From assembly GCA_035455205.1 (NCBI GenBank), contig DATIFM010000015.1:1986-65985 (forward strand): a stretch of DNA of 64,000 bases. Reading direction: 5' to 3'. The DNA is from Candidatus Bilamarchaeum sp. (lineage in GTDB: Archaea; Micrarchaeota; Micrarchaeia; Anstonellales; Bilamarchaeaceae). The position numbers and the translations under genes are program-made. The notes below the pieces were generated by a model that did no database searches, was not told the DNA's origin, and saw only the letters and a list, made by a program, of their open reading frames with translations. Below, piece after piece: positions 5,081 to 45,404 of this stretch. How positions within the stretch are numbered: the first letter of the stretch is position 1; each line of letters begins with the position of its first letter.

Positions 5081-5743
5081 CTACCGAATTCTTCGCCCGC
5101 CCCGGGGCTCGGCCGGATGAAGGCGGGCGTAGGAAAGATACGAGTACGCGACGCTGGCGAGCGCCGCGGAGGCTACGGAGCCGAAAATGACGATGAATGA
5201 GTATTCCGGGATGAGCGCGGAAAGCAGGCACAGAGCGCCTGCGGCCATGAAGAGCTTCGAGCCGAGCCGGTGGGTTTTTGCCCACACCTCGGTGCTGCTC
5301 AGCGTCCAGGGCGTCCGTATCCCGATTGACCAGTTCTGCTTCGCCTTCGCGAGGAAGCTCCCGAGATAGAAAATCAGGCCGCCAAGGAGCACGGGCATCG
5401 TGAGGTTGAAGTTGATCCGGGTGCCGAGGTTCCAGAGCATCGCCTGGGCGTGCACGAGCAGGAGGAAGAGCAGCATTGCGATGCAGAACCTGAAATACGC
5501 CTTTTTGAAGGATTCGATGTTCGCGCGGAGCGGGTCGACCATGGGAACCGCGAGGAATACGAGCGCGAGCACCCCTGAAATCGCCGGGAGGAGGAAAGCC
5601 GCGTATTCCCTGGGCATGTAGCCGTCCGCTTCACCGGACGCGTTCCAGTGGGACACTGCGATTCCGGGGAGATGCGGGTAGGCATACGCCCCCACGGCGA
5701 ACGAAATGACGACCAAAAGGGCAATAGCTTTGAGCTCTATCAT
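5081..5743 (-). CDS. SdpI/DUF1648 family membrane protein
   Basis: 220 aa. It has a DUF1648-like start (PGIAVSHWNASGEADGYMPRE) and an SdpI-like NWSIGIRTPWTLSSTEVWAKTHR, with multiple TM helices. Confidence 0.75.
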   Translation of the reverse strand: MIELKAIALLVVISFAVGAYAYPHLPGIAVSHWNASGEADGYMPREYAAFLLPAISGVLALVFLAVPMVDPLRANIESFKKAYFRFCIAMLLFLLLVHAQAMLWNLGTRINFNLTMPVLLGGLIFYLGSFLAKAKQNWSIGIRTPWTLSSTEVWAKTHRLGSKLFMAAGALCLLSALIPEYSFIVIFGSVASAALASVAYSYLSYARLHPAEPRGGRRIR

Positions 5744-5780
5744 GAGCGGAATTCTCGGAGCGGCTTATTTATCCCTTTGT

Positions 5781-6287
5781 TCAGGGCTGAAAATGCCCCA
5801 GAACCGCCTTTACGTTGATATGGCAGTATCCGCCCGGGTTCTTCACTAGGTATTTCTGGTGGTATTCCTCGGCAGGCCAGAACGTCCCTGCAGGCTCTAT
5901 TGAAGTGGCTATCGGCTGGGAGTATTTCTTCTGCTCCATGGCCTTCGACGCTTCAGCGGCCTTCTTCTGCTCCTCCGAATGGAAGAATATCACCGGCCGG
6001 TACTGCGAGCCTATGTCGTTGCCCTGCCCGTCCGCCTGCGTCGGGTGGTGGGACATCCAGAACACCTCGAGCAGTTTCCCGTAAGTAGTCACGGTCGGGT
6101 CGTAAGTCATCTGGACGACTTCCACGTGGCCGGTCGTGTCGTCGCAGACCTGCTGGTAAGTCGGCTTCTTTGTCGAGCCGCCCATGTAGCCTACGGCCGT
6201 CTCCTTCACTCCCTTTATCTGCCTGAAAAGCTCCTCGGTGCCCCAGAAGCACCCTCCGCCGAATGTCGCCTTTTCCATGAGAACCAA
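5781..6287 (-). CDS. msrA: Peptide-methionine (S)-S-oxide reductase
   Basis: [15 protein letters not shown] active-site motif, [11 protein letters not shown] and YHQKYL. 168 aa. Confidence 0.95.
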
Positions 6288-6321
6288 TCCGCCAGATTCT
6301 TTTATATACGCGAGCCAGATT

Positions 6322-7386
6322 CTACTTCGTTATGGTCTGCTTGGGCCTTGCTATCTTCAGCAGCGGGTCAGAGAGCCACGGCGAGAAGTCTATGCCGGCG
6401 CTCGTCATCCTGGAGGTGAGCTCCATCAGCGCCCCGCTCGGGGTGTCGGCCGCCATCACCGCGTCGAAGCTCCCCGCCCCGAGCTTCCCGTCCACTATCC
6501 TCCGCACTTCCGTAAAATTGCCCGTCAGGAAGGCCCGCCTGAGGACGGAGTCGTCTTCGACGAGCTTCTGCAGCATGAATGCGACGCGCAGCTGCTGCGG
6601 ATAGGATGAATACGTCGTGTCATGGCCCGCATTCCTCGTCAGCTGCTGCGCGTAAAGCTCGGCAAGGCCTTCGTGGAGCCAGACCGCGGAGGGGCGGGCG
6701 CCGTTGAACACGGGCGCTCCCGCAGCCCCCCTCCAGCGCATGTTGCTGGGGTCTCCTCCGCCAAGGTGCGCGGCGTAATGGAGCGTTTCGTGGAGTATGG
6801 TGCGCCTCCGGTCGGCCTCCACTGCCAGGTCGTCGGCGATTATGATGTGGTTCGTTCCGGGCGAGTAATACGCGTTTGCGCCTGCCCCTTCGGCCTGCTC
6901 GAGGGCATCGAAAAAGCTGCGCGGCGCGGTAGTGAATACGGGCGGAGTCTGCCTGAGCCTGCCGCTTATCACTGGCCCGAGGAAGCTCTCGCCGAGCAAT
7001 CCCACGGCCTCATGGCCCTCGGCGTTCGGGCCGGACGACTGGGCCGAATCCGGGGATACGGATGCCGGAAAAGCATTATTGGGAACTGCGCTCCTGAATT
7101 TCTGGTATTCCCGGTCCACGCGCCTATCCGCCTCTTCGCTCCCTCCCACGATGGTTGCGGGGCGCTCGTGGCCCCGCTCGCAGCTGGAGAATATGTCCTC
7201 CTCCGAGAAATGCTGGGCGGGCGCGCTGGACAGGAAAAGGGACACCTTCGAAGAATGGAGCGAGAGCTGCGAAAGCGACGCCAGGGCTATTTCCGCAGAC
7301 TGGCGCGCAACTGGCGCTTCCGGGCGGAAAGGGTTCGGGCCCGGCGGGGCGGCTTCGGTTTCGGCCTGCGCCTGCTTCAGCACCAT
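6322..7386 (-). CDS. Gluzincin-type (HExxH...WLHEGLAE) metallopeptidase-like protein; cargo gene of cassette copy 1
   Basis: HETLH is followed 29 aa later by [10 protein letters not shown], the MA-clan HExxH + (N/H)EGxA pattern. I chose the start at ATG 7384-7386 ([15 protein letters not shown]...). GGGAGG lies 8 nt upstream and there is a 1-nt TGATG overlap with the preceding ORF. Confidence 0.7.
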
Positions 7387-37414: not shown

Positions 37415-37951
37415 ATGGTTAGCTACGCCGTATTGAGAAAACTCTCCTCAGCCCGCAACAGTGCGGGCGACGCGGGGCTCGGCGGGACGGCCGAGCGCCT
37501 CGACATCCTGCGGAGGCGCCTTGCCGAGTACAAGGACATTCCGGCAGAAGGCCGGGAAAAGAGGCTCAGGTGGGCCGCAGGGAAAGTGGAGGACACCCGC
37601 GAGACGCTCAGGAAGGAGCTGTGCGCAATGGGTGACGAGACGCGGAGGGAAATCGAGCACAGGAGCGGCGACGGCGCAATACTTGCCAAGGGCGCAGGCT
37701 TCCTCGCATTCGCGTGGCTGACCTTCAGGGCCATCGACGCGATAGAGGACCACGCCTTCCTTCTGATAGCCGGCGGAATAGCCGCATTCACGGCCTTCAC
37801 CGGCTTCATCGACAATTTCATAGGGCCGGTTTCATTTGAAAAGACGAAAAACGGGATAGAGGATGCGCTTTCGCAGTGCGCGAGGGCGATAGAGCGGCGC
37901 AGGGACGGGCTGAAGGGAATCGCGGCTTGCGCCCGGCCTGAGGAGTCCTAG
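37415..37951 (+). CDS. Helical membrane protein, paralog of 41706..42206
   Basis: 178 aa. L.KLSSARN.A..AGL....RL..(I/L)R...........P......R..WA.G..E and GAILAK+G followed by two TM helices are shared with 41706..42206. Confidence 0.65.
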   Translation: MVSYAVLRKLSSARNSAGDAGLGGTAERLDILRRRLAEYKDIPAEGREKRLRWAAGKVEDTRETLRKELCAMGDETRREIEHRSGDGAILAKGAGFLAFAWLTFRAIDAIEDHAFLLIAGGIAAFTAFTGFIDNFIGPVSFEKTKNGIEDALSQCARAIERRRDGLKGIAACARPEES

Positions 37952-38059
37952 GCCGCGGAAATCCTCCCCCGCAACACTTATTTTCCGCAAAGCCGCGTCT
38001 TCAGCCGGTGATAGGATGAGAAGGAGCGAATTGTTCGTCAACGCACTGGGGCTATTCGA

Positions 38060-38329
38060 ATGGGAAGGACAATACCGAGCGTAAGCCGGAGGATAGAGGA
38101 GCGCATGGCGAGGTGGGAGAATTTCGCGAGGCACCTGCGCGGCGATGAGAGGGAGGCGTTCGGGAGGCTGGCGCGGGCCGTGAAGGACATGCGCGGGGCC
38201 ATCGATGCGGCGGACGAGCCGGACCTGGCTGTGGCGATGCTCCTTGCAATAGCGGTGCATATCGAGGCGGAGAATGAACGGGCTGGAAGTCAGGAGAGGA
38301 AAGGTCAGGAGCGGCTACCCGGAGCTTGA
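38060..38329 (+). CDS. Hypothetical small protein
   Basis: 89 aa and Arg/Glu-rich. It overlaps the next gene by 56 nt. Its coding status is uncertain. Confidence 0.4.
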   Translation: MGRTIPSVSRRIEERMARWENFARHLRGDEREAFGRLARAVKDMRGAIDAADEPDLAVAMLLAIAVHIEAENERAGSQERKGQERLPGA

Positions 38330-38936
38330 GCGGGCGCTCTCCATAGGCACGGGCATCGTCACGATAAGGTGCGCGCACGCGCAATGGCTCTTCGACCTCG
38401 TCGCCAATATGATGGTGAGGAATTACTCGGCGGGAAGGCGCATCCTCTACATGCACTGGGTGGACTACCACGAGCGGTACTGGAGCTTCGACTACGACCG
38501 CGTGCTCGGAATCGCGAAGAGGGCCGGCGCGGACGCGGAGGGGCTTTCCGAGAGCGTGATATTCCTGCGCGCCTTCTCGAGGGACAACGTGGAGGTGGAG
38601 GAGAACTGGAAAAGGACGGCAGAGGCCGGGAAGTTCGACCTGATAATACTCGACTCGGTGGGCGAGCTTTATTCTGAGAAGAAGGAGGGGAGCAAGGCCA
38701 TGACGTATTCAATCGGGAAGTTCTCCCAGCTCTGCACAAGGAACGACTGCGTCGGGATAGTGCTGGACAGGATGGGGGGCAGGCTGCACAACTACCTCGC
38801 GCACGTCTCTTCGGTGATACTGGAAATCGAAGTGTCCCGCGAGATAGCTTTCACGATACTGAAGCACCCGTGCATGGCCGAGAGTTCCGAGGCATTCCCG
38901 CGCGACGGGCAGTACAGGCTGGCAAGATGGCTCTAG
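38274..38936 (+). CDS. RadB/KaiC-like RecA-superfamily protein lacking the Walker A P-loop
   Basis: The layout matches RadB: SGYPELERALSIGTGIVTI (where G..GsGKT would follow, it reads RCAHAQWLFDL), Walker-B-like FDLIILDSVGELY, and the C-terminal VILEIEVSREIAFTILKHPCMAES...F. Confidence 0.6.
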   Translation: MNGLEVRRGKVRSGYPELERALSIGTGIVTIRCAHAQWLFDLVANMMVRNYSAGRRILYMHWVDYHERYWSFDYDRVLGIAKRAGADAEGLSESVIFLRAFSRDNVEVEENWKRTAEAGKFDLIILDSVGELYSEKKEGSKAMTYSIGKFSQLCTRNDCVGIVLDRMGGRLHNYLAHVSSVILEIEVSREIAFTILKHPCMAESSEAFPRDGQYRLARWL

Positions 38937-40801
38937 CATTCCTGCTGAACGCGTATGTGGAGCGCGGCGGCGTGCGCCTTCTTTTCAAGGGCGAGTGCGG
39001 GCGCTTTTCAATCCGCGACAGGTACGAGCCGTATTTCTACATAATATGCAGGAACCCCGACGAGACGCGGTGGCTTATTTCCCAGCACCCCTCGGTCACC
39101 CGCGCGTCCATAGAGGAAAGGTTCCAGGATTTGCGGAGCCGGGAGAAGGCGCCCCTCGTGAGGGTTCAGTGCGGGCTCGGGGATTTTCGGGAAGTGGTGC
39201 AGGATGCGAGAAAGCTCGAGGGCATCAGCGAGATAGCGGAAACGTCGGTGCCGCACTATTACCGCTACGTGATGGACAACGGGCTGAAGTTCTTCGGCGC
39301 GTACGAGCTGAGTGGCGGGAAGTTCAGGCCCGCCGGGAGCGAGGCCCTTCCCGAGCTCGATTGCGCGCTCTGGAGGGGCGGACCGATACCGGATGCGGAC
39401 GTTGTCTTCACGGACGGGGGCGACTATTCCCTGCGGGGGGCAAGGGGCGTTCTCCAGTCCACGCTCGGCTGCTTCCTCCCCGAGTCCCTGCACATCGACC
39501 TGAGGCAGGACAGGGACCACGACATCTACAACGAGGGGGGAAGCGCCGGGCCGGAGGACGACGCGCGGCTGATGGCCGCCGGCAGGGAGAGGCTGATTCG
39601 GATAATCGAGCTTTCGCAGATATCAGGGGCGAAGCCAGACCTGATTCCGAGGATAAGCCCGGGCAAGCTCAACTGCTACCTCCATATGAGCGCCGCAAGG
39701 AAGGCCGGCCACATAGTCCCTGATATCCGCAAGTCGGTCGAGAGGCCCAAAAGCATGAAGCTATTGAAGAAGATGGACCGGGGCGGGACGATAATCTACC
39801 CCAAGCCCGGCATTTTCCGCAATGTCGCCAAGTGCGACTTCTCCTCGCTCTACCCGAGCATAATAGTGAACTGCAACATCAGCCCGGAAACGATGCACTG
39901 CGGATGCGGGGACGATGCGATTGTGCCCGAAACCGGCTGGAGGATATGCCGCAGGCGGGGCCTGATACCCGAAGGCCTCGAGCCCGTGCTGCGCAGGCGG
40001 CTGGAGCTGAAGGCGGAAATGCGCGCGAGCAGCGGCGAGCAGAGAAAAAAATGCGACATACGGCAGAAGGCGCTCAAGAACATTTTGGTCACCTGCTTCG
40101 GCTACATGGGCTACAGCAATTTCGTATTTTCAAACGTGGAGACCAAGGAATGCGTGATGCACTACGGCAGGGTCATCATGGAAAGGACCAAGGACATCGC
40201 GGATTCGATGGGCCTTGATGTCCTCTACGGATACGTGGACAGCATATTCGTGGCAGGCGGGAGCCGCGACGACTACAGCGAGTTCATGCGGGCGGCGGGC
40301 GCGGAGTTCGGAATCGAGCTCGCCCTCGACTGCACGTTCGACTCGGTAGCATTCCCGCGCGGTGCGGCCGGGTGCGCGGCCGCGAACCACTATTACGGCA
40401 TCACGGATTCCGGGGAGATAGAGGCGCGCGGCATAGCGTACAGGCATTCGGACGCGCCGCTTTTCATAAAAAGATACCAGGGGGAGGCGATGCGCGCCTT
40501 CCTCGGAAATGACAGCGGAGGCTTCGAAGCGGCGTATGAAAAGTGCAGGGCCGGGCTCCTCGGCAGGGAATTCCCCCTCGACGAACTCAAGATAGCGAGG
40601 CGGCTCCGCAAGGAGTCCTACAAGGCCGCCCAGCCGCACGTGCGGGCATACATGCAGTCGCACGACAAGAGCGGCTTTGTAGAGTTCGTCTACACGGCCT
40701 ACGGCCCCAAGCCGATGGAACTCGCGCGCATTGAAGAGATAGACGCGGGAAAATACCTTGCCCTCCTCGCGCGGGCGCGGAAGGAACTTGTAAATTTTTA
40801 A
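38927..40801 (+). CDS. polB: Family B DNA polymerase, short form with degenerate exonuclease motifs (PolB2-like?)
   Basis: Motif A is CDFSSLYPSII and motif B-like is KALKNILVTCFGYMGY. Motif C reads YGYVDS instead of YGDTDS (40226-40243). Exo I position is LDCALW instead of FDIE. At 624 aa it is far shorter than replicative archaeal PolB. The start is at MALAFLLNAY, overlapping the previous gene. Confidence 0.8.
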   Translation: MALAFLLNAYVERGGVRLLFKGECGRFSIRDRYEPYFYIICRNPDETRWLISQHPSVTRASIEERFQDLRSREKAPLVRVQCGLGDFREVVQDARKLEGISEIAETSVPHYYRYVMDNGLKFFGAYELSGGKFRPAGSEALPELDCALWRGGPIPDADVVFTDGGDYSLRGARGVLQSTLGCFLPESLHIDLRQDRDHDIYNEGGSAGPEDDARLMAAGRERLIRIIELSQISGAKPDLIPRISPGKLNCYLHMSAARKAGHIVPDIRKSVERPKSMKLLKKMDRGGTIIYPKPGIFRNVAKCDFSSLYPSIIVNCNISPETMHCGCGDDAIVPETGWRICRRRGLIPEGLEPVLRRRLELKAEMRASSGEQRKKCDIRQKALKNILVTCFGYMGYSNFVFSNVETKECVMHYGRVIMERTKDIADSMGLDVLYGYVDSIFVAGGSRDDYSEFMRAAGAEFGIELALDCTFDSVAFPRGAAGCAAANHYYGITDSGEIEARGIAYRHSDAPLFIKRYQGEAMRAFLGNDSGGFEAAYEKCRAGLLGREFPLDELKIARRLRKESYKAAQPHVRAYMQSHDKSGFVEFVYTAYGPKPMELARIEEIDAGKYLALLARARKELVNF

Positions 40802-40824: not shown

Positions 40825-41709
40825 ATGTATGCGGTGCGGGACGCGTCGCTCAGGGAGCGGCGCAACGGATTCATGAAAGCGAGGGACGGGGTCCTCGTCG
40901 AGTATTCCTATTTCGACAGGAAAGCCGAGACGACAATCGCGTTCATCAACGGCTGGGGGACCGTCAGCTTTTCGGAATGGGCAAGGCAGGTGCGCCTTGC
41001 CGACCACAACCTGCTGATGCACAACAGCCGGGGCATGGGGAGGAGCGGCCTCGGCAGCGGCGACTACCTCCACAACGAGGCAGGAGACCTCGGCGAGCTG
41101 ATTACGCATGTCGGCGCCAAGGGGGTGCACCTGGTCGGCCACAGCATGGGCGGGCTCATAGGGACATTGTTCCTTTCGAGGTACCGGAACGGCGCGGACA
41201 TACGCACGATGACATACGTCTGCTCGCCGGACGGCGACCCCGTGGAGACGTTCTCGCTCAAGGGGATACTTAGATTCGACGTGGACAGGGCGATTTCGTC
41301 CTATGAGAGCGGGTTCCTCGGGGAGCTTGCATCGCTTGCAGAAAGGAGCAGGGCGGCCGAGGCGCTCGCATACGTGGCCACCTTCGGCGGGGGCGTCCGA
41401 TTCCACAGGGGGGAGTTCTCGCGGCTCTACCATAATTTCCTTGCCCACAGGGAAGCCGTCGCGAAGGCTCTCAAGTCGATGAGGGAAAACGGGGAGGAGA
41501 TAGGCGGGATGCTGAAGGACGTGGACGTCCCGGCATTGATAATCGCGGGCAGGTACGATTTCCTCGTGGAATACACGGCCGCGAAAAGGATGCACGGGGA
41601 GATTCCGCAGTCGAAACTGGTGATATTCGAGAAATCCAGCCACGCGCCGATGTTCGAGGAGCCCGCGCGCTTCAACCAGGTCCTTTCGGACTTTCTGGAG
41701 TACAGATGA
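40825..41709 (+). CDS. Alpha/beta hydrolase
   Basis: HLVGHSMGG nucleophile elbow, a late AGRYDFLV and SSHAPMFEEP (His). Confidence 0.9.
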   Translation: MYAVRDASLRERRNGFMKARDGVLVEYSYFDRKAETTIAFINGWGTVSFSEWARQVRLADHNLLMHNSRGMGRSGLGSGDYLHNEAGDLGELITHVGAKGVHLVGHSMGGLIGTLFLSRYRNGADIRTMTYVCSPDGDPVETFSLKGILRFDVDRAISSYESGFLGELASLAERSRAAEALAYVATFGGGVRFHRGEFSRLYHNFLAHREAVAKALKSMRENGEEIGGMLKDVDVPALIIAGRYDFLVEYTAAKRMHGEIPQSKLVIFEKSSHAPMFEEPARFNQVLSDFLEYR

Positions 41710-42206
41710 TGCGGACCGGAATCCTCTCGAGGCTCGCCTGTGCGAGGAACTTTGCAGAGCAGGCCGGCCTCTACGAAACATCCTGCAGGCTCGAGGAGAT
41801 ACGGAAGGAGATGAGCCGGTTCCACGAGCTCCCCCGCGAGCGGCAGGCATACAGGGCCGCATGGGCCCTTGGCAGGGCGGAGGAGGCGAAAAACGCCATG
41901 GAGCGCGAGCTTTCGCCCGGTATGGAAAGGACGGTGAAGGACAGGCGTGCCGACAAGGACTCGGGGGCGATACTTGCCAAAATCGGCCTTTGCATCTGCA
42001 CTATGTTCGGGGGGATGCTGGCCCTGATGGCCAATGAGAGCCACCGCATACTCACCGGCGCGGCATTCGTCATAGGGACGGTTGCGGCGGCGTTCACGAT
42101 AGACAGCATGATAGGGTCAAAGGAGCCGCAGGAAACCGCGGAGCAGGTCCGGAAAACGCTCGACGAGCTCCGCAGGGCGCTCACGTGCCGCATGCTCGGC
42201 AGATAA
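41706..42206 (+). CDS. Helical membrane protein, paralog of 37415..37951
   Basis: 166 aa with an ATGA overlap with the hydrolase. See 37415..37951 for the shared motifs. Confidence 0.65.
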   Translation: MMRTGILSRLACARNFAEQAGLYETSCRLEEIRKEMSRFHELPRERQAYRAAWALGRAEEAKNAMERELSPGMERTVKDRRADKDSGAILAKIGLCICTMFGGMLALMANESHRILTGAAFVIGTVAAAFTIDSMIGSKEPQETAEQVRKTLDELRRALTCRMLGR

Positions 42207-44486: not shown

Positions 44487-45404
44487 TCAGGAGCAGTTTG
44501 CCCCGTCGCAGGCCCACGGCTCGTAGCAGTAACCGTAATCGCCTTCCACGCAGCAGGACGCGCCGATGAAGCCGCAGTCCGTCCTCTCGATGAAGACTTC
44601 GGTGACGATGATGAATTCGTTGACCTGTGAAATCCCGATCCCTTCCTCGCCGAATGACGGCTCGAGGACGTTCGCGCGGTGGCCTGGGCTCGCAAGCCAG
44701 CCCTGAACGACTTTCGCCTCGAGCGCGCTTTCGCCCACCCAGTCGATTTTCGTCCAGTTCACACGAACCGCGGATTCTGCATATTTTTCCCGCGCGGCGA
44801 GGTCGGAAAGGACGCCCGCGGGGTCAGCGTATTCCTCGACTATCTGCGTTCCGCCTTCGCACGGCGCGTATGGCACGTCCGCGTATTTGAACGACCACTC
44901 GGGCGCCATGAAGATGTTCTCGCCCGACGCGTTGAAGTAGTATATGGAAGCGTTCATAAGGCGCCCCTCCTGATAGAGGCCTGTTTCGAAGCCCTCATGG
45001 TGGATGAAGATGTCCGGGCAGTATATCGAGGGGTCCGTGAGGTTCGCGTTCTCGCGTGCGAGGGCCTCGGAGTGCCCCCTCGCGACCTTCGCCACATCAT
45101 AGTTGTATTCGAGGGGCTCCAGGCCGTTTTTCAGGCGCTCGGCGTTTATCAATGCATGGATTCGCAGCTCCATCGCGGTCAGATTGTACTGCGGCCGGGG
45201 CGCGGGCTTTTCCGGCTGGGGGGAATTGATGCCGGGAATGGGCGGGATTTGAGGGGCCGGCCCTGAAGGCGGGGATGCGGGCTTTTGCGTTCCGGCGGAG
45301 GGGGCCGGGGCCTTTTGCGGGAACAATGCCGGGACTATGAAGAACACGGCAAGGAGCAGGAAAAACAACAGGACCAGAACAAGCATCCTCGCCATGAATA
45401 GCAA
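44487..45404 (-). CDS. Secreted CAP/SCP/PR1-like (YkwD-type) domain protein with Pro-rich linker and Cys-rich C-terminal tail
   Basis: An N-terminal TM/signal, a PAPS-rich linker, INAERLKNGLEPLEYNYDVAKVARGHSEALA and WLASPGHRANVL. Confidence 0.8.
   Translation of the reverse strand: MLFMARMLVLVLLFFLLLAVFFIVPALFPQKAPAPSAGTQKPASPPSGPAPQIPPIPGINSPQPEKPAPRPQYNLTAMELRIHALINAERLKNGLEPLEYNYDVAKVARGHSEALARENANLTDPSIYCPDIFIHHEGFETGLYQEGRLMNASIYYFNASGENIFMAPEWSFKYADVPYAPCEGGTQIVEEYADPAGVLSDLAAREKYAESAVRVNWTKIDWVGESALEAKVVQGWLASPGHRANVLEPSFGEEGIGISQVNEFIIVTEVFIERTDCGFIGASCCVEGDYGYCYEPWACDGANCS

What the first reader, a model, noticed from the sequence alone, without database searches (positions are those of the whole stretch)
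38060..40801. Overlapping operon of a P-loop-less RadB-like protein and a short PolB with degenerate exonuclease and altered motif C
The 220-aa product of 38274..38936 follows the RadB/KaiC layout: TG-type N-terminus, Walker-B-like FDLIILDSVGELY, and C-terminal ...VILEIEVSREIAFTILKHPCMAES. Where GxxGxGKT should be, it reads RCAHAQWLFDL, so ATP binding is probably lost.

It overlaps a 624-aa family-B polymerase:
- Motif A (DFSSLYPS) and a motif B-like KxxxNxxxGYxG are retained.
- YGYVDS replaces YGDTDS.
- LDCALW replaces the Exo I FDIE.
- The exonuclease region is strongly shortened.

Inactivated or 'PolB2'-type archaeal polymerases are known. A conserved pairing with an inactivated RecA-family protein is not something I know to be described. 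It suggests a non-replicative DNA-transaction module, perhaps in repair, translesion synthesis or defence.
Basis: partly seen in the sequence, partly recalled or inferred. Interest (0 to 1): 0.62.

Follow-up and report, generated by a model that had tools for sequence, protein, structure and literature searches.

The report
Known PolB2 translesion polymerase operon
The overlapping genes are a Micrarchaeota copy of the already published three-gene archaeal operon for a damage-tolerance DNA polymerase (PolB2) and its two partners, so the pairing is real but not new.

Summary
Window 38060-40801 (+) carries three overlapping, co-oriented genes, not two:
- an 89-aa helical protein starting MGRTIPS;
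- a 220-aa RadA/Rad51-fold protein without a P-loop;
- a 624-aa family-B polymerase with no exonuclease motifs and YVD in place of DTD.

This is the PPB2-iRadA-PolB2 "PolB2 mutasome" operon (Makarova 2014; Timinskas 2025). Its Sulfolobus polymerase, Dpo2, is an experimentally shown damage-inducible translesion extender.

All testable defining features are met:
- the MGRT arm of PPB2;
- the RadA core fold of iRadA, with Walker A lost;
- the PolB2-specific D(K/R)GG and LVTCFGY signatures;
- a tree position with S. islandicus Dpo2 and away from PolB3.

In a 201-genome sample of the phylum, the three genes co-occur strictly: six genomes carry all three, and one holds a decayed remnant. The genome also encodes a canonical PolB3, PolD, a Y-family polymerase and PCNA, so this polymerase is not the replicase.

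The iRadA C-terminus is a PCNA-binding box (Q and W invariant), while PolB2 has none.

One possibly new side observation: a GCGGAAAY element 10-19 nt upstream of the TATA box is shared, across the genus, by this operon, nre, mcm and a short orc1/cdc6 paralog.

The parts
37955..37962 (+). Upstream promoter element GCGGAAAT, 14 nt before the TATA-like box
   Evidence: Read directly from the sequence. The same element lies upstream of the PPB2 start in L004, L036, L037 and L040. Genome-wide, GCGGAAAY shows a peak of TATA-like boxes 10-19 nt downstream, which control cores lack.
37977..37988 (+). TATA-like box CTTATTTT (37977-37984), overlapped by an inverted half-site ATTTTCCGC (37980-37988)
   Evidence: Sequence. 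The function is inferred from position, about 75 nt upstream of the PPB2 ATG.
38060..38329 (+). PPB2 (arCOG07300) gene, 89 aa. The N-terminal arm MGRTIPS is at 38060-38080.
   Evidence: - In 11 homologs M1, G2, R3, I5, P6, S7, R11 and W19 are invariant.
- The AF2 model shows a free N-terminal arm and three helices, at 8-23, 28-48 and 53-81 (pLDDT 74).
- The 'MGRT' motif and the three-helix description come from PMC11791011.
38274..38936 (+). iRadA gene, 220 aa: a RadA/Rad51 core without the N-terminal domain and without a Walker A motif
   Evidence: - A profile of 27 homologs finds RAD51/RadA in the PDB (best E 2.3e-8).
- The AF2 model (pLDDT 82) matches RAD51/RadA filament structures by Foldseek, with TM about 0.7 and E about 1e-11.
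- Alignment.
38352..38399 (+). Degenerate Walker A position (GIVTIRCAHAQWLFDL)
   Evidence: It aligns with the G-GKT stretch of S. solfataricus RadA in the profile alignment. None of the 27 homologs has GK[ST] here.
38634..38657 (+). Walker-B-like strand FDLIILDS
   Evidence: L126 and D127 are invariant and S128 nearly so. It aligns with the RadA/RAD51 Walker B strand.
38910..38933 (+). C-terminal PCNA-binding (PIP) box QYRLARWL of iRadA
   Evidence: The pattern Q-x-x-[LM]-x-x-W-[LMVI] sits at the extreme C-terminus in all 27 homologs, with Q213 and W219 invariant. It is present in all six related loci. PCNA motifs on iRadA are described in PMC11791011. PCNA is encoded in this genome.
38927..40801 (+). 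PolB2 gene, 624 aa: an exonuclease-less family-B polymerase
   Evidence: - PF00136, E 3e-28.
- 29% identity and E 6e-40 to S. islandicus Dpo2, from the N-terminus through motif C.
- The tree places it with Dpo2 and Methanogenium PolB2 and apart from PolB3 (SH-aLRT 99).
39353..39382 (+). Remnant of the Exo I region (ELDCALWRGG); the catalytic D and E are lost
   Evidence: Alignment with the genome's own PolB3 (FDIET) and with 20 PolB2 homologs, none of which has D-x-E here.
39713..39787 (+). Loop IVPDIRKSVERPKSMKLLKKMDRGG, ending in the PolB2-specific D(K/R) motif (D284-R285)
   Evidence: D[KR]GG is present in most PolB2-side rows and in no PolB3 row. It aligns with 253-DK-254 of S. islandicus Dpo2. 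The paper models the preceding segment as the iRadA-binding beta-alpha motif; that contact was not modelled here.
39836..39859 (+). Polymerase motif A DFSSLYPS (catalytic Asp kept)
40076..40105 (+). Altered motif B KNILVTCFGY (PolB3 has KILANSFYGY)
   Evidence: K..LV[TAC][CS]FGY appears on the PolB2 side and K..ANSxYGY on the PolB3 side.
40226..40243 (+). Motif C YGYVDS: the first Asp of DxD is replaced by Tyr, the second Asp is kept
   Evidence: -.
- Micrarchaeota relatives have I, M or V at this position, and S. islandicus has IID.
- The YVD variant occurs 35 times in the published operon table.

Best explanation
This locus is a PPB2-iRadA-PolB2 operon, the archaeal 'PolB2 mutasome'. Three translationally coupled genes encode the parts of one specialised DNA-damage-tolerance polymerase.

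**The three parts**
- **PolB2** keeps the two metal-binding aspartates (motif A, and the second Asp of motif C) but has lost all three exonuclease motifs. By analogy with Sulfolobus Dpo2, it is an active, proofreading-free polymerase that extends primer ends opposite lesions or mismatches.
- **iRadA** is a RadA core that can no longer bind ATP. It serves as an adaptor. It docks onto a loop of PolB2 that mimics the RadA oligomerisation motif, and its C-terminal QxxLxxWL box tethers the complex to PCNA at a stalled fork.
- **PPB2** forms a helical trimer. Its conserved MGRT arm inserts between PolB2 and iRadA, next to the DNA.

**What is shown here**
- gene content, order and overlaps;
- the motifs, the folds of iRadA and PPB2, and the clade membership of PolB2;
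- strict co-occurrence of the three genes;
- the presence of separate replicative polymerases and of PCNA.

**What is taken from the literature or inferred**
- polymerase activity and the extender role (Sulfolobus experiments);
- the 1:1:3 complex and its contacts (published AlphaFold models);
- PCNA binding;
- damage-inducible transcription.
For: **Family matches**
- The polymerase matches PF00136 at E 3e-28. The RadA-like protein has only weak Rad51/RadB hits as a single sequence.

**Published description of the system**
- PolB2 + inactivated RadA + arCOG07300 operon: PMC4104785.
- The MGRT arm, the D(K/R) motif, PIP boxes mostly on iRadA, and the heteropentamer model: PMC11791011.

**Experiments in Sulfolobus**
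- Dpo2 is damage-inducible and solely responsible for targeted mutagenesis: PMC7390963.
- Dpo2 is a robust exonuclease-free mismatch and lesion extender: PMC8764526.

**Results on this locus**
- The triad occurs in the same order, overlapping, in six other Micrarchaeota loci.
- Among 201 genomes of the phylum, PolB2 orthologs, iRadA and PPB2 occur in the same six genomes. One further genome holds a PPB2 + truncated-iRadA remnant without PolB2.
- iRadA fold.
- The PIP box is conserved, with Q and W invariant.
- PolB2 signatures and tree.
- The genome also encodes PolB3 (FDIET, DTD, C-terminal PIP), PolD DP2, a Y-family polymerase and PCNA.
Against: - There are no biochemical or expression data for any Micrarchaeota copy.
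- iRadA and PPB2 here show almost no detectable sequence similarity to the Sulfolobus proteins. The hhalign E-values are 0.012 and 3.8e-4, and the PPB2 match covers only the first 29 residues. Their orthology therefore rests on fold, motifs and context.
- Tyr at the first DxD position and Val/Phe in motif B are untested substitutions. This particular enzyme could be weaker than Dpo2.
- The gene order PPB2-iRadA-PolB2 is not one of the two orders named in the parts of the published tables I could read.
- No orc1/cdc6 gene was seen among the ORFs examined around the operon, roughly 34-45 kb of the window, unlike many euryarchaeal loci.
- The complex itself was not modelled here, because only monomers could be predicted.
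Confidence: 0.88

Rival explanations
1. A catalytically dead pseudo-polymerase complex. All three proteins would be non-enzymatic and act only as a structural or regulatory factor at stalled forks or origins. This was the original 2014 reading of PolB2.
For: - The first Asp of DxD is replaced (YVD), and motif B has lost the Asn and Tyr of KxxxNSxYG.
- The RadA partner has lost Walker A.
- Makarova 2014 proposed this reading.
Against: - The motif A Asp and the second motif C Asp are conserved throughout the clade.
- S. islandicus and S. solfataricus Dpo2 carry the same class of substitutions (IID, LVASFGY) and are robust polymerases. They are required for targeted mutagenesis.
Confidence: 0.08
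2. A decaying, non-functional remnant of a once active polymerase operon in a reduced symbiont genome.
For: - The operon is patchy, found in 6 of 201 genomes of the phylum.
- One genome (G018) holds only PPB2 and a truncated iRadA, so loss does occur.
Against: - All three frames are intact here and in six other loci at only 40-58% identity.
- Functional motifs are conserved across these copies: MGR-IPS, the PIP box and D[KR]GG, and the motif A Asp and second motif C Asp stay invariant.
- More than 50 full-length homologs exist.
Confidence: 0.03
3. The polymerase module of a mobile element or a defence system, such as a casposon-type or protein-primed PolB.
For:
- Paralogous genes flank the block.
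- There is a PADLOC 'HEase' match.
Against: - The PADLOC match covers only polymerase residues 304-385 of a 1671-position profile, so it reflects shared polymerase sequence.
- There is no integrase or Cas1, and there are no terminal repeats.
- The flanking paralogs are only 30% identical as proteins, and they are absent from the related loci.
- G+C content shows no anomaly.
- The tree places the protein with chromosomal PolB2.
Confidence: 0.01

Closest known systems
PolB2 mutasome operon (PolB2/Dpo2 + iRadA + PPB2/arCOG07300): Makarova, Krupovic & Koonin 2014 (PMC4104785); Timinskas, Timinskas & Venclovas 2025 (PMC11791011)
   Same: - The same three components are encoded in one co-oriented, overlapping operon.
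- PPB2 has the MGRT N-terminus and three helices.
- iRadA is a RadA core without the N-terminal domain and without ATPase motifs.
- PolB2 has no exonuclease active site, a substituted first Asp of DxD, and the D(K/R) loop motif.
- The clamp-binding motif is on iRadA rather than on PolB2.
   Different: - The gene order is PPB2-iRadA-PolB2. The orders named in the readable parts of the published tables are iRadA-PPB2-PolB2 (1a, 1375 of 1823 operons) and PPB2-PolB2-iRadA (3a/3b). I could not see the paper's Fig. 2, so this order may already be listed there.
- The polymerase belongs to a well-supported Micrarchaeota-only clade, sister to the other PolB2 rows in my limited tree.
- No orc1/cdc6, SRAP or DUF72 neighbour was seen.
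Sulfolobus islandicus / Saccharolobus solfataricus Dpo2 (PMC7390963, PMC8764526)
   Same: - 29% identity over 446 columns, E 6e-40.
- ADKGG aligns with MDRGG, DFSSMYPS with DFSSLYPS, LVASFGY with LVTCFGY, and IID with YVD.
- It coexists with a replicative PolB and a Y-family polymerase.
   Different: - The Sulfolobus order is PPB2-PolB2-iRadA.
- The Sulfolobus iRadA and PPB2 are barely alignable with those here.
- Damage induction by Orc1-2 through the ANTTTC element is shown only in Sulfolobus.
E. coli Pol V mutasome (UmuD'2C-RecA-ATP)
   Same: The architecture is analogous: a translesion polymerase, a RecA-family subunit and a small oligomeric accessory protein. This comparison is the thesis of PMC11791011.
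   Different: - Pol V has a Y-family polymerase, not a B-family one.
- Its RecA is active and ATP-bound, whereas iRadA has lost its ATPase motifs.
- The two systems are not homologous as systems.
   Same: Both are short RadA paralogs that lack the N-terminal HhH domain.
   Different: - RadB keeps Walker A; this protein does not.
- The TIGR02237 score is 20.8 bits against a cut-off of 172.4.
- RadB is not linked to polB2.

Membership tests
PolB2 (Dpo2) group of family-B DNA polymerases | Family-B polymerase palm and fingers with motif A Asp and the second motif C Asp | tested here: met
   PF00136 at E 3e-28. DFSSLYPS and YGYVDS align with DFRSLYPS and SDTDG of a Thermococcus-type PolB structure and with the genome's own PolB3.
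PolB2 (Dpo2) group of family-B DNA polymerases | Exonuclease active site (Exo I, II, III) absent or decayed | tested here: met
   - There is no PF03104 hit.
- FDIE aligns to WRGG, and NSxxFD aligns to DGGDYS.
- No PolB2-side row has FDIE.
- The region before motif A is 122 residues shorter than in the genome's own PolB3.
PolB2 (Dpo2) group of family-B DNA polymerases | First Asp of the DxD motif usually substituted | tested here: met
   The motif is YVD here. Micrarchaeota relatives have IVD, MVD or VVD, and S. islandicus has IID. YVD is listed 35 times in the published table.
PolB2 (Dpo2) group of family-B DNA polymerases | Conserved D(K/R) motif in the loop before motif A | tested here: met
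   KKMDRGG at residues 281-287 aligns with MMADKGG (253-DK-254) of S. islandicus Dpo2. The motif is absent from all PolB3 rows.
PolB2 (Dpo2) group of family-B DNA polymerases | Phylogenetic placement with characterised PolB2 and apart from PolB3 and PolB1 | tested here: inconclusive
   The window protein falls on the side of the split that holds S. islandicus Dpo2 and Methanogenium PolB2. The 14 exo+/DTD PolB3-type rows lie on the other side (SH-aLRT 99, quick search). The result is limited: no PolB1 or casposon sequences were available, and the Dpo2 row is partial with a long branch.
PolB2 (Dpo2) group of family-B DNA polymerases | Polymerase activity without 3'-5' exonuclease; efficient mismatch and lesion extension | not testable with these tools
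   This is known only for Sulfolobus Dpo2 (PMC8764526).
iRadA (inactivated RadA of PolB2 operons) | RadA/Rad51 ATPase-core fold | tested here: met
   The profile search of the PDB returns RAD51/RadA as the top hits, with best E 2.3e-8. The AF2 model has pLDDT 82, and its top 50 Foldseek hits are all RAD51, DMC1 or RadA, with TM about 0.7.
iRadA (inactivated RadA of PolB2 operons) | ATPase site lost (no Walker A) and no N-terminal helical domain | tested here: met
   GIVTIRCAHAQWLFDL occupies the P-loop position, and none of the 27 homologs has GK[ST] there. The protein starts where residue ~82 of S. solfataricus RadA aligns.
iRadA (inactivated RadA of PolB2 operons) | Encoded in the same operon as PolB2 and PPB2 | tested here: met
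   The gene overlaps PPB2 by 56 nt and PolB2 by 10 nt. The arrangement is the same in six other loci. Strong iRadA matches occur only in genomes with the PolB2 ortholog, apart from one remnant.
iRadA (inactivated RadA of PolB2 operons) | Sequence similarity to a characterised-system iRadA (S. islandicus) | tested here: inconclusive
   hhalign gives E 0.012 and probability 3.5%. The 2014 paper already notes that iRadA arCOGs have diverged beyond easy recognition.
PPB2 (arCOG07300) | About 90-aa protein of three helices with a free N-terminal arm | tested here: met
   The protein is 89 aa. The AF2 model shows an arm at residues 1-7 and helices at 8-23, 28-48 and 53-81, with pLDDT 74.
PPB2 (arCOG07300) | Conserved N-terminal 'MGRT' motif with conserved Arg residues | tested here: met
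   The protein starts MGRTIPSVSRR. M1, G2, R3, I5, P6, S7 and R11 are invariant in 11 homologs. The S. islandicus PPB2 starts MGRTQPSY.
PPB2 (arCOG07300) | Homotrimer that docks on PolB2-iRadA | not testable with these tools
   Only monomer prediction was available. The trimer and heteropentamer are published AlphaFold models, not experiments.
RadB (TIGR02237) | Intact Walker A and a score above the family cut-off | tested here: not met
   The score is 20.8 bits against a cut-off of 172.4, and there is no GKT.
Replicative archaeal PolB3 | Exo I-III, KxxxNSxYG, DTD and a C-terminal PIP box; the genome's main family-B polymerase | tested here: not met
   None of these features is present in the window protein. 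A separate 790-aa gene on contig C9 has all of them: FDIET, KILANSFYGY, YADTDS and KQKSLDSFF.

The most novel reading that the evidence does not exclude
In this Micrarchaeota genus, the PolB2 operon may belong to a small replication/repair regulon marked by a fixed-position promoter element.

**The element.** GCGGAAAY lies 10-19 nt upstream of the TATA box. In front of the short orc1/cdc6 paralog it forms an inverted repeat, GCGGAAAT-N7-9-ATTCCGC.

**Genes that carry it.** The element precedes the PPB2-iRadA-PolB2 operon, the repair gene nre, mcm, and a short orc1/cdc6 paralog. It does not precede the genes for PolB3, PolD or the Y-family polymerase.

**The boldest reading.** The short Orc1/Cdc6 paralog binds this element, autoregulates, and switches these genes in response to DNA damage or the cell cycle. 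That would be a DPANN counterpart of the Sulfolobus Orc1-2/ANTTTC damage response. That the element is a real shared cis-element is well supported. Who binds it, and what signal it answers to, is pure inference.
Probability: 0.25. Interest if true: 0.5.

Novelty: new member of a known kind. Interest (0 to 1): 0.2.

Why it matters
**The locus itself.** It adds little. It shows that some of the larger Micrarchaeota (DPANN) genomes keep the complete PolB2 translesion complex alongside PolB3, PolD and a Y-family polymerase. It also shows that in this lineage the PCNA-binding box sits on iRadA, which agrees with the published in-silico model.

**Practical use.** The three genes can be annotated PPB2, iRadA and PolB2 instead of 'hypothetical protein' and 'DNA polymerase domain-containing protein'.

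**The promoter element.** Its value is that it can be tested. If it is a damage or cell-cycle switch, it would give a first handle on transcriptional regulation of replication and repair in DPANN archaea. It would also extend the link between Orc1/Cdc6 paralogs and PolB2 beyond Sulfolobales.

Tried and rejected
- **Single-protein scan of genome contigs.** `search for related loci` with the polymerase returned only two loci, one of them a PolB3. Whole-genome searches in the phylum were used instead.
- **Pfam family of the PPB2 homologs.** PF26485 is precomputed for them but is not in the local libraries, so its name could not be read.
- **First tree.** It used a spurious 873-aa opposite-strand ORF as 'own PolB3'. 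It was discarded and redone.
- **PADLOC 'HEase' hit.** Rejected as shared polymerase sequence.
- **Mobile-element idea.** Rejected: there are no flanking DNA repeats, and the flanking paralogs are only 30% identical and not conserved in the related loci.
- **Equating GCGGAAAY with the Sulfolobus ANTTTC element.** Only some copies contain a literal ANTTTC on the opposite strand, for example AATTTC at the orc1/cdc6 promoter. Most nre copies do not. I claim only a shared TTTC/GAAA core.
- **The orc1/cdc6 promoter as a replication origin.** Not supported. The intergenic region is about 70 nt, lies behind an unrelated gene, and has no AT-rich unwinding region.


Full report
**1. What is there**

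Window 38060-40801 (+) holds three co-oriented, overlapping ORFs.
- 38060-38329 encodes 89 aa, starting MGRTIPSVSRR.
- 38274-38936 encodes 220 aa and overlaps the first ORF by 56 nt.
- 38927-40801 encodes 624 aa from the ATG. This ATG overlaps the stop of the 220-aa gene in ATGGCTCTAG.

G+C content is unremarkable.

**2. Single-sequence family searches**

- The polymerase matches PF00136 (E 3e-28) but no exonuclease domain family.
- Its best NCBIfam model is a 665-position 'type B DNA-directed DNA polymerase' model, NF004416 (E 8e-62, below cut-off). This scores ahead of the PolB1/PolB3-type models.
- The 220-aa protein gives only weak Rad51, RadB and DMC1 hits, with E around 1e-3 to 1e-4. Its RadB score is 20.8 bits against a cut-off of 172.4.
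- Against PDB sequences, the polymerase aligns with Thermococcus-type PolB from the palm onward. DFSSLYPS aligns with DFRSLYPS, and YGYVDS with YSDTDG.

**3. The literature already describes this system**

- Makarova, Krupovic and Koonin 2014 (PMC4104785) report that PolB2 genes form a predicted operon with an inactivated RadA-family gene and a ~90-aa helical protein, arCOG07300. They find this across archaea and in some bacteria.
- Timinskas et al. 2025 (PMC11791011) name the partners iRadA and PPB2 and analyse 1823 operons.
  - They model a PolB2:iRadA:PPB2(3) heteropentamer.
  - They show the conserved N-terminal 'MGRT' arm of PPB2.
  - They describe a D(K/R) motif in PolB2, preceded by a segment that binds iRadA like a RadA oligomerisation motif.
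  - They find clamp-binding motifs more often on iRadA than on PolB2.
- Experiments in Sulfolobus show that Dpo2 (a PolB2) is damage-inducible and solely responsible for targeted mutagenesis (PMC7390963).
- Dpo2 is also a robust polymerase that lacks proofreading and extends mismatched or lesion-opposed primer ends (PMC8764526).
- Its induction depends on Orc1-2, which binds an ANTTTC promoter element (PMC6061795).

**4. Membership tests: PPB2**

- Eleven homologs share invariant M1, G2, R3, I5, P6, S7, R11 and W19.
- The AF2 model (pLDDT 74) has a free arm and three helices.
- Sequence similarity to the S. islandicus PPB2, taken from the paper's supplement, is limited to the first 29 residues (hhalign E 3.8e-4).
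- Foldseek found no PDB match.

**5. Membership tests: iRadA**

- I aligned 27 homologs, all from Micrarchaeota-type metagenome contigs.
- The profile finds RAD51/RadA in the PDB with best E 2.3e-8. The alignment to S. solfataricus RadA starts at RadA residue ~82, so the N-terminal domain is absent.
- The AF2 model (pLDDT 82, pTM 0.82) has RAD51, DMC1 and RadA as its top 50 Foldseek hits, with TM about 0.7 and E about 1e-11.
- No homolog has a GK[ST] P-loop. The Walker-B-like hhhhD strand is kept.
- The last eight residues form Q-x-x-[LM]-x-x-W-[LMVI], with Q and W invariant. This is an archaeal PIP box of the same kind as the KQKSLDSFF end of the genome's own PolB3.
- PolB2 ends ..KELVNF and has no such box.
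- PCNA is encoded on contig C9.

**6. Membership tests: PolB2**

- I aligned it with 20 homologs and with the genome's own PolB3.
  - No Exo I, II or III residues remain.
  - The region before motif A is 122 residues shorter.
  - KKMDRGG is the D(K/R) signature.
  - Motif B reads KNILVTCFGY against KILANSFYGY in PolB3.
  - Motif C reads YGYVDS.
- BLASTP against S. islandicus Dpo2 gives 29% identity over 446 columns (E 6e-40), starting at the N-terminus. DK aligns on DR and IID on YVD.
- A maximum-likelihood tree of 36 rows has a split with SH-aLRT 99.
  - One side holds 14 PolB3-type rows. All have D-T/S-D in motif C and none has D[KR]GG. Most keep a literal FDIE and KxxANSxYG and end in a PIP-like C-terminus.
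  - The other side holds 22 rows, including the window protein, S. islandicus Dpo2 and a Methanogenium 'type B DNA-directed DNA polymerase'. None has FDIE, most have D[KR]GG, all have LV[TAC][CS]FGY-type motif B, and nearly all have a substituted first Asp.
  - The window protein sits in an 11-row Micrarchaeota clade (support 100).
- Caveats: no PolB1 or casposon references were available, the Dpo2 row is partial, and the search was 'quick'.
- An earlier tree used a wrong ORF and is void.
- YVD occurs 35 times in the published operon table, so it is a known variant.

**7. Is the association conserved, and is this the replicase?**

- Homolog names identify the lineage as Micrarchaeota.
- I searched 201 genomes of the phylum.
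  - PolB2 orthologs (E below 1e-100) occur in six: the window's own genome, three congeners, and two from other families.
  - Strong iRadA and PPB2 matches occur in exactly the same six.
  - One further genome (G018) has PPB2 followed by a truncated iRadA and no PolB2, a remnant caught in decay.
- In the six related loci I examined (five of those genomes plus L004, a contig from the separate genome-contig scan), the order is PPB2-iRadA-PolB2 and the genes abut or overlap. The flanking genes differ.
- All six carriers have genomes of 1.2-1.5 Mb, at the large end for the phylum.
- The window's genome is 1.39 Mb in 37 contigs and about 82% complete. It also encodes:
  - a canonical 790-aa PolB3;
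  - the PolD large subunit;
  - a Y-family polymerase.
- The window polymerase is therefore an accessory enzyme.

**8. How this copy differs from the published picture**

- The order PPB2-iRadA-PolB2 is not one of the orders named in the parts of the supplementary tables held here. Those parts name 1a, iRadA-PPB2-PolB2 (1375 of 1823 operons), and 3a/3b, PPB2-PolB2-iRadA. The string 'PPB2-iRadA' does not occur.
- I could not see Fig. 2, and the tables were cut when stored. This is therefore at most a minor variant and may already be listed.
- The one Micrarchaeota operon visible in the held (cut) parts of the tables is of the Methanomicrobia-like 1a type.
- No orc1/cdc6, SRAP or DUF72 gene was seen among the neighbours. 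These are NUDIX, a metallo-beta-lactamase-fold nuclease-like protein, HAD, a HEAT-repeat protein, an alpha/beta hydrolase, a CAP-domain protein and two paralogous membrane proteins.

**9. Rivals**

- A fully inactive regulatory complex is unlikely. The two metal-ligand aspartates are conserved, and Dpo2 with equivalent substitutions is active.
- A decaying remnant is unlikely, given intact frames and conserved functional motifs at 40-58% identity.
- A mobile or defence module is not supported.

**10. Side observation: a shared promoter element**

- Upstream of the PPB2 start, the window has GCGGAAAT (37955-37962), 14 nt before a TATA-like box.
  - The same element is present in all three congeners that carry the operon and in L004.
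  - Weaker variants occur in the two more distant loci.
- In the window's genome, GCGGAAAY is followed by a TATA-like octamer 10-19 nt downstream far more often than at any other spacing. The count is 20 in those ten positions, against about 1 per 5-nt bin elsewhere.
- Control cores (CCGGAAAY, GCGCAAAY, GCGGGAAY) show no such peak.
- Seventeen sites fit GCGGAAA plus a box. Assignable downstream genes include:
  - a short Orc1/Cdc6 paralog;
  - MCM;
  - Nre (PF04894 + PF04895);
  - this operon;
  - a HAD hydrolase.
- Footprinting across relatives gave these results.
  - nre carries the element at -51/-52 from the ATG in 10 of 15 congeners, and at -57 to -82 in three more, 13 of 15 in all. It is absent outside the genus.
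  - The short orc1/cdc6 paralog carries an inverted repeat, GCGGAAAT-N7-9-ATTCCGC, directly before the TATA box in 11 of 14 congeners.
  - mcm carries it in the window's genome and in 6 of 13 congeners in the sample, and also in G109 (L046).
- The element is absent upstream of the genome's PolB3, PolD and Y-family genes.
- It shares only a TTTC/GAAA core with the Sulfolobus ANTTTC element.
- Earlier notes of this scan report TTTC-containing elements about 20 nt upstream of the TATA box of PolB2 operons in Thermoplasmatota and Marine Group II archaea. I did not check those.
- That this is a shared cis-element seems well supported. Its regulator and its signal are unknown.

**11. Verdict**

The functional guess is right, but the claim that the pairing is undescribed is wrong. 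The locus is an ordinary, intact, deep-branching Micrarchaeota member of the published PolB2-iRadA-PPB2 system.

Noticed in passing
window 37955-37988; own genome contigs C6 (orc1/cdc6 short paralog), C9 (nre), C21 (mcm); loci L046-L060, L071-L082, L101-L111: GCGGAAAY lies 10-19 nt upstream of the TATA box, and genome-wide only this core shows a spacing peak. Across the genus the element is conserved in front of the PolB2 operon, nre, mcm and a short orc1/cdc6 paralog, where it forms an inverted repeat. It is absent in front of the PolB3, PolD and Y-family polymerase genes. It is a candidate replication/repair regulon element.
   Followed up: partly
L101-L113 (mcm promoters of the genus), about 25-35 nt upstream of the ATG: A second conserved word, (T)AGACTTCCACTAT(T/A)TTT, lies downstream of the TATA box in most mcm promoters of the genus. 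A similar GTTCCACTTTTCCAC precedes the orc1/cdc6 promoter of the window's genome. It looks like an ORB-type TTCCA element, but this rests on memory only.
   Followed up: no
L042 (G018:C18), about 5612-6323 on the minus strand: A Micrarchaeota genome holds an intact PPB2 gene followed by a truncated, out-of-frame iRadA and no PolB2. This is a remnant of the operon caught during loss.
   Followed up: partly
L043 (G173:C19), L044 (G132:C4), L041 (G173:C94): A second, very divergent set occurs in another Micrarchaeota family.
- A PPB2-like protein starts MGRTVPSY.
- Nearby lies a 139-187-aa protein that looks like a more degenerate iRadA (..IFIDAGNVFNPYYI..).
- On a separate small contig there is a 747-aa PolB with DKGG, LVTCFGY and IID that falls on the PolB2 side of the tree.

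The components are not adjacent.
   Followed up: partly
window 37415-37951 (+) and 41706-42206 (+): Two paralogous proteins with a predicted membrane segment (30% identity, E 2e-18) bracket the operon plus an alpha/beta hydrolase gene (40825-41709). Neither the paralogs nor the hydrolase accompany the operon in related loci, and no DNA repeats flank the block.
   Followed up: partly
window 44487-45404 (-); L036 8263-9291 (+); L040 5061-5957 (-): A secreted CAP-domain protein with a Cys-rich C-terminus (..CYEPWxCDGxxC) lies directly downstream of PolB2 in two congeners. In the window it is 3.7 kb away on the opposite strand, which suggests a local insertion or inversion here.
   Followed up: no
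L045 (G169:C5 ~17.3 kb) and L046 (G109:C22, 4866-5120 -): Weak PPB2-like small helical ORFs without the MGRT arm lie 1-2 kb from mcm in two congeners that lack the PolB2 operon.
   Followed up: no
own genome C6:11003-12064 (-) and C5:9345-10157 (-): The genome and all 24 sampled relatives encode two Orc1/Cdc6 paralogs that are about 33% identical. In the window's genome only the shorter one (354 aa) turned up among the GCGGAAA + TATA sites; the promoter of the longer paralog was not examined directly.
   Followed up: partly
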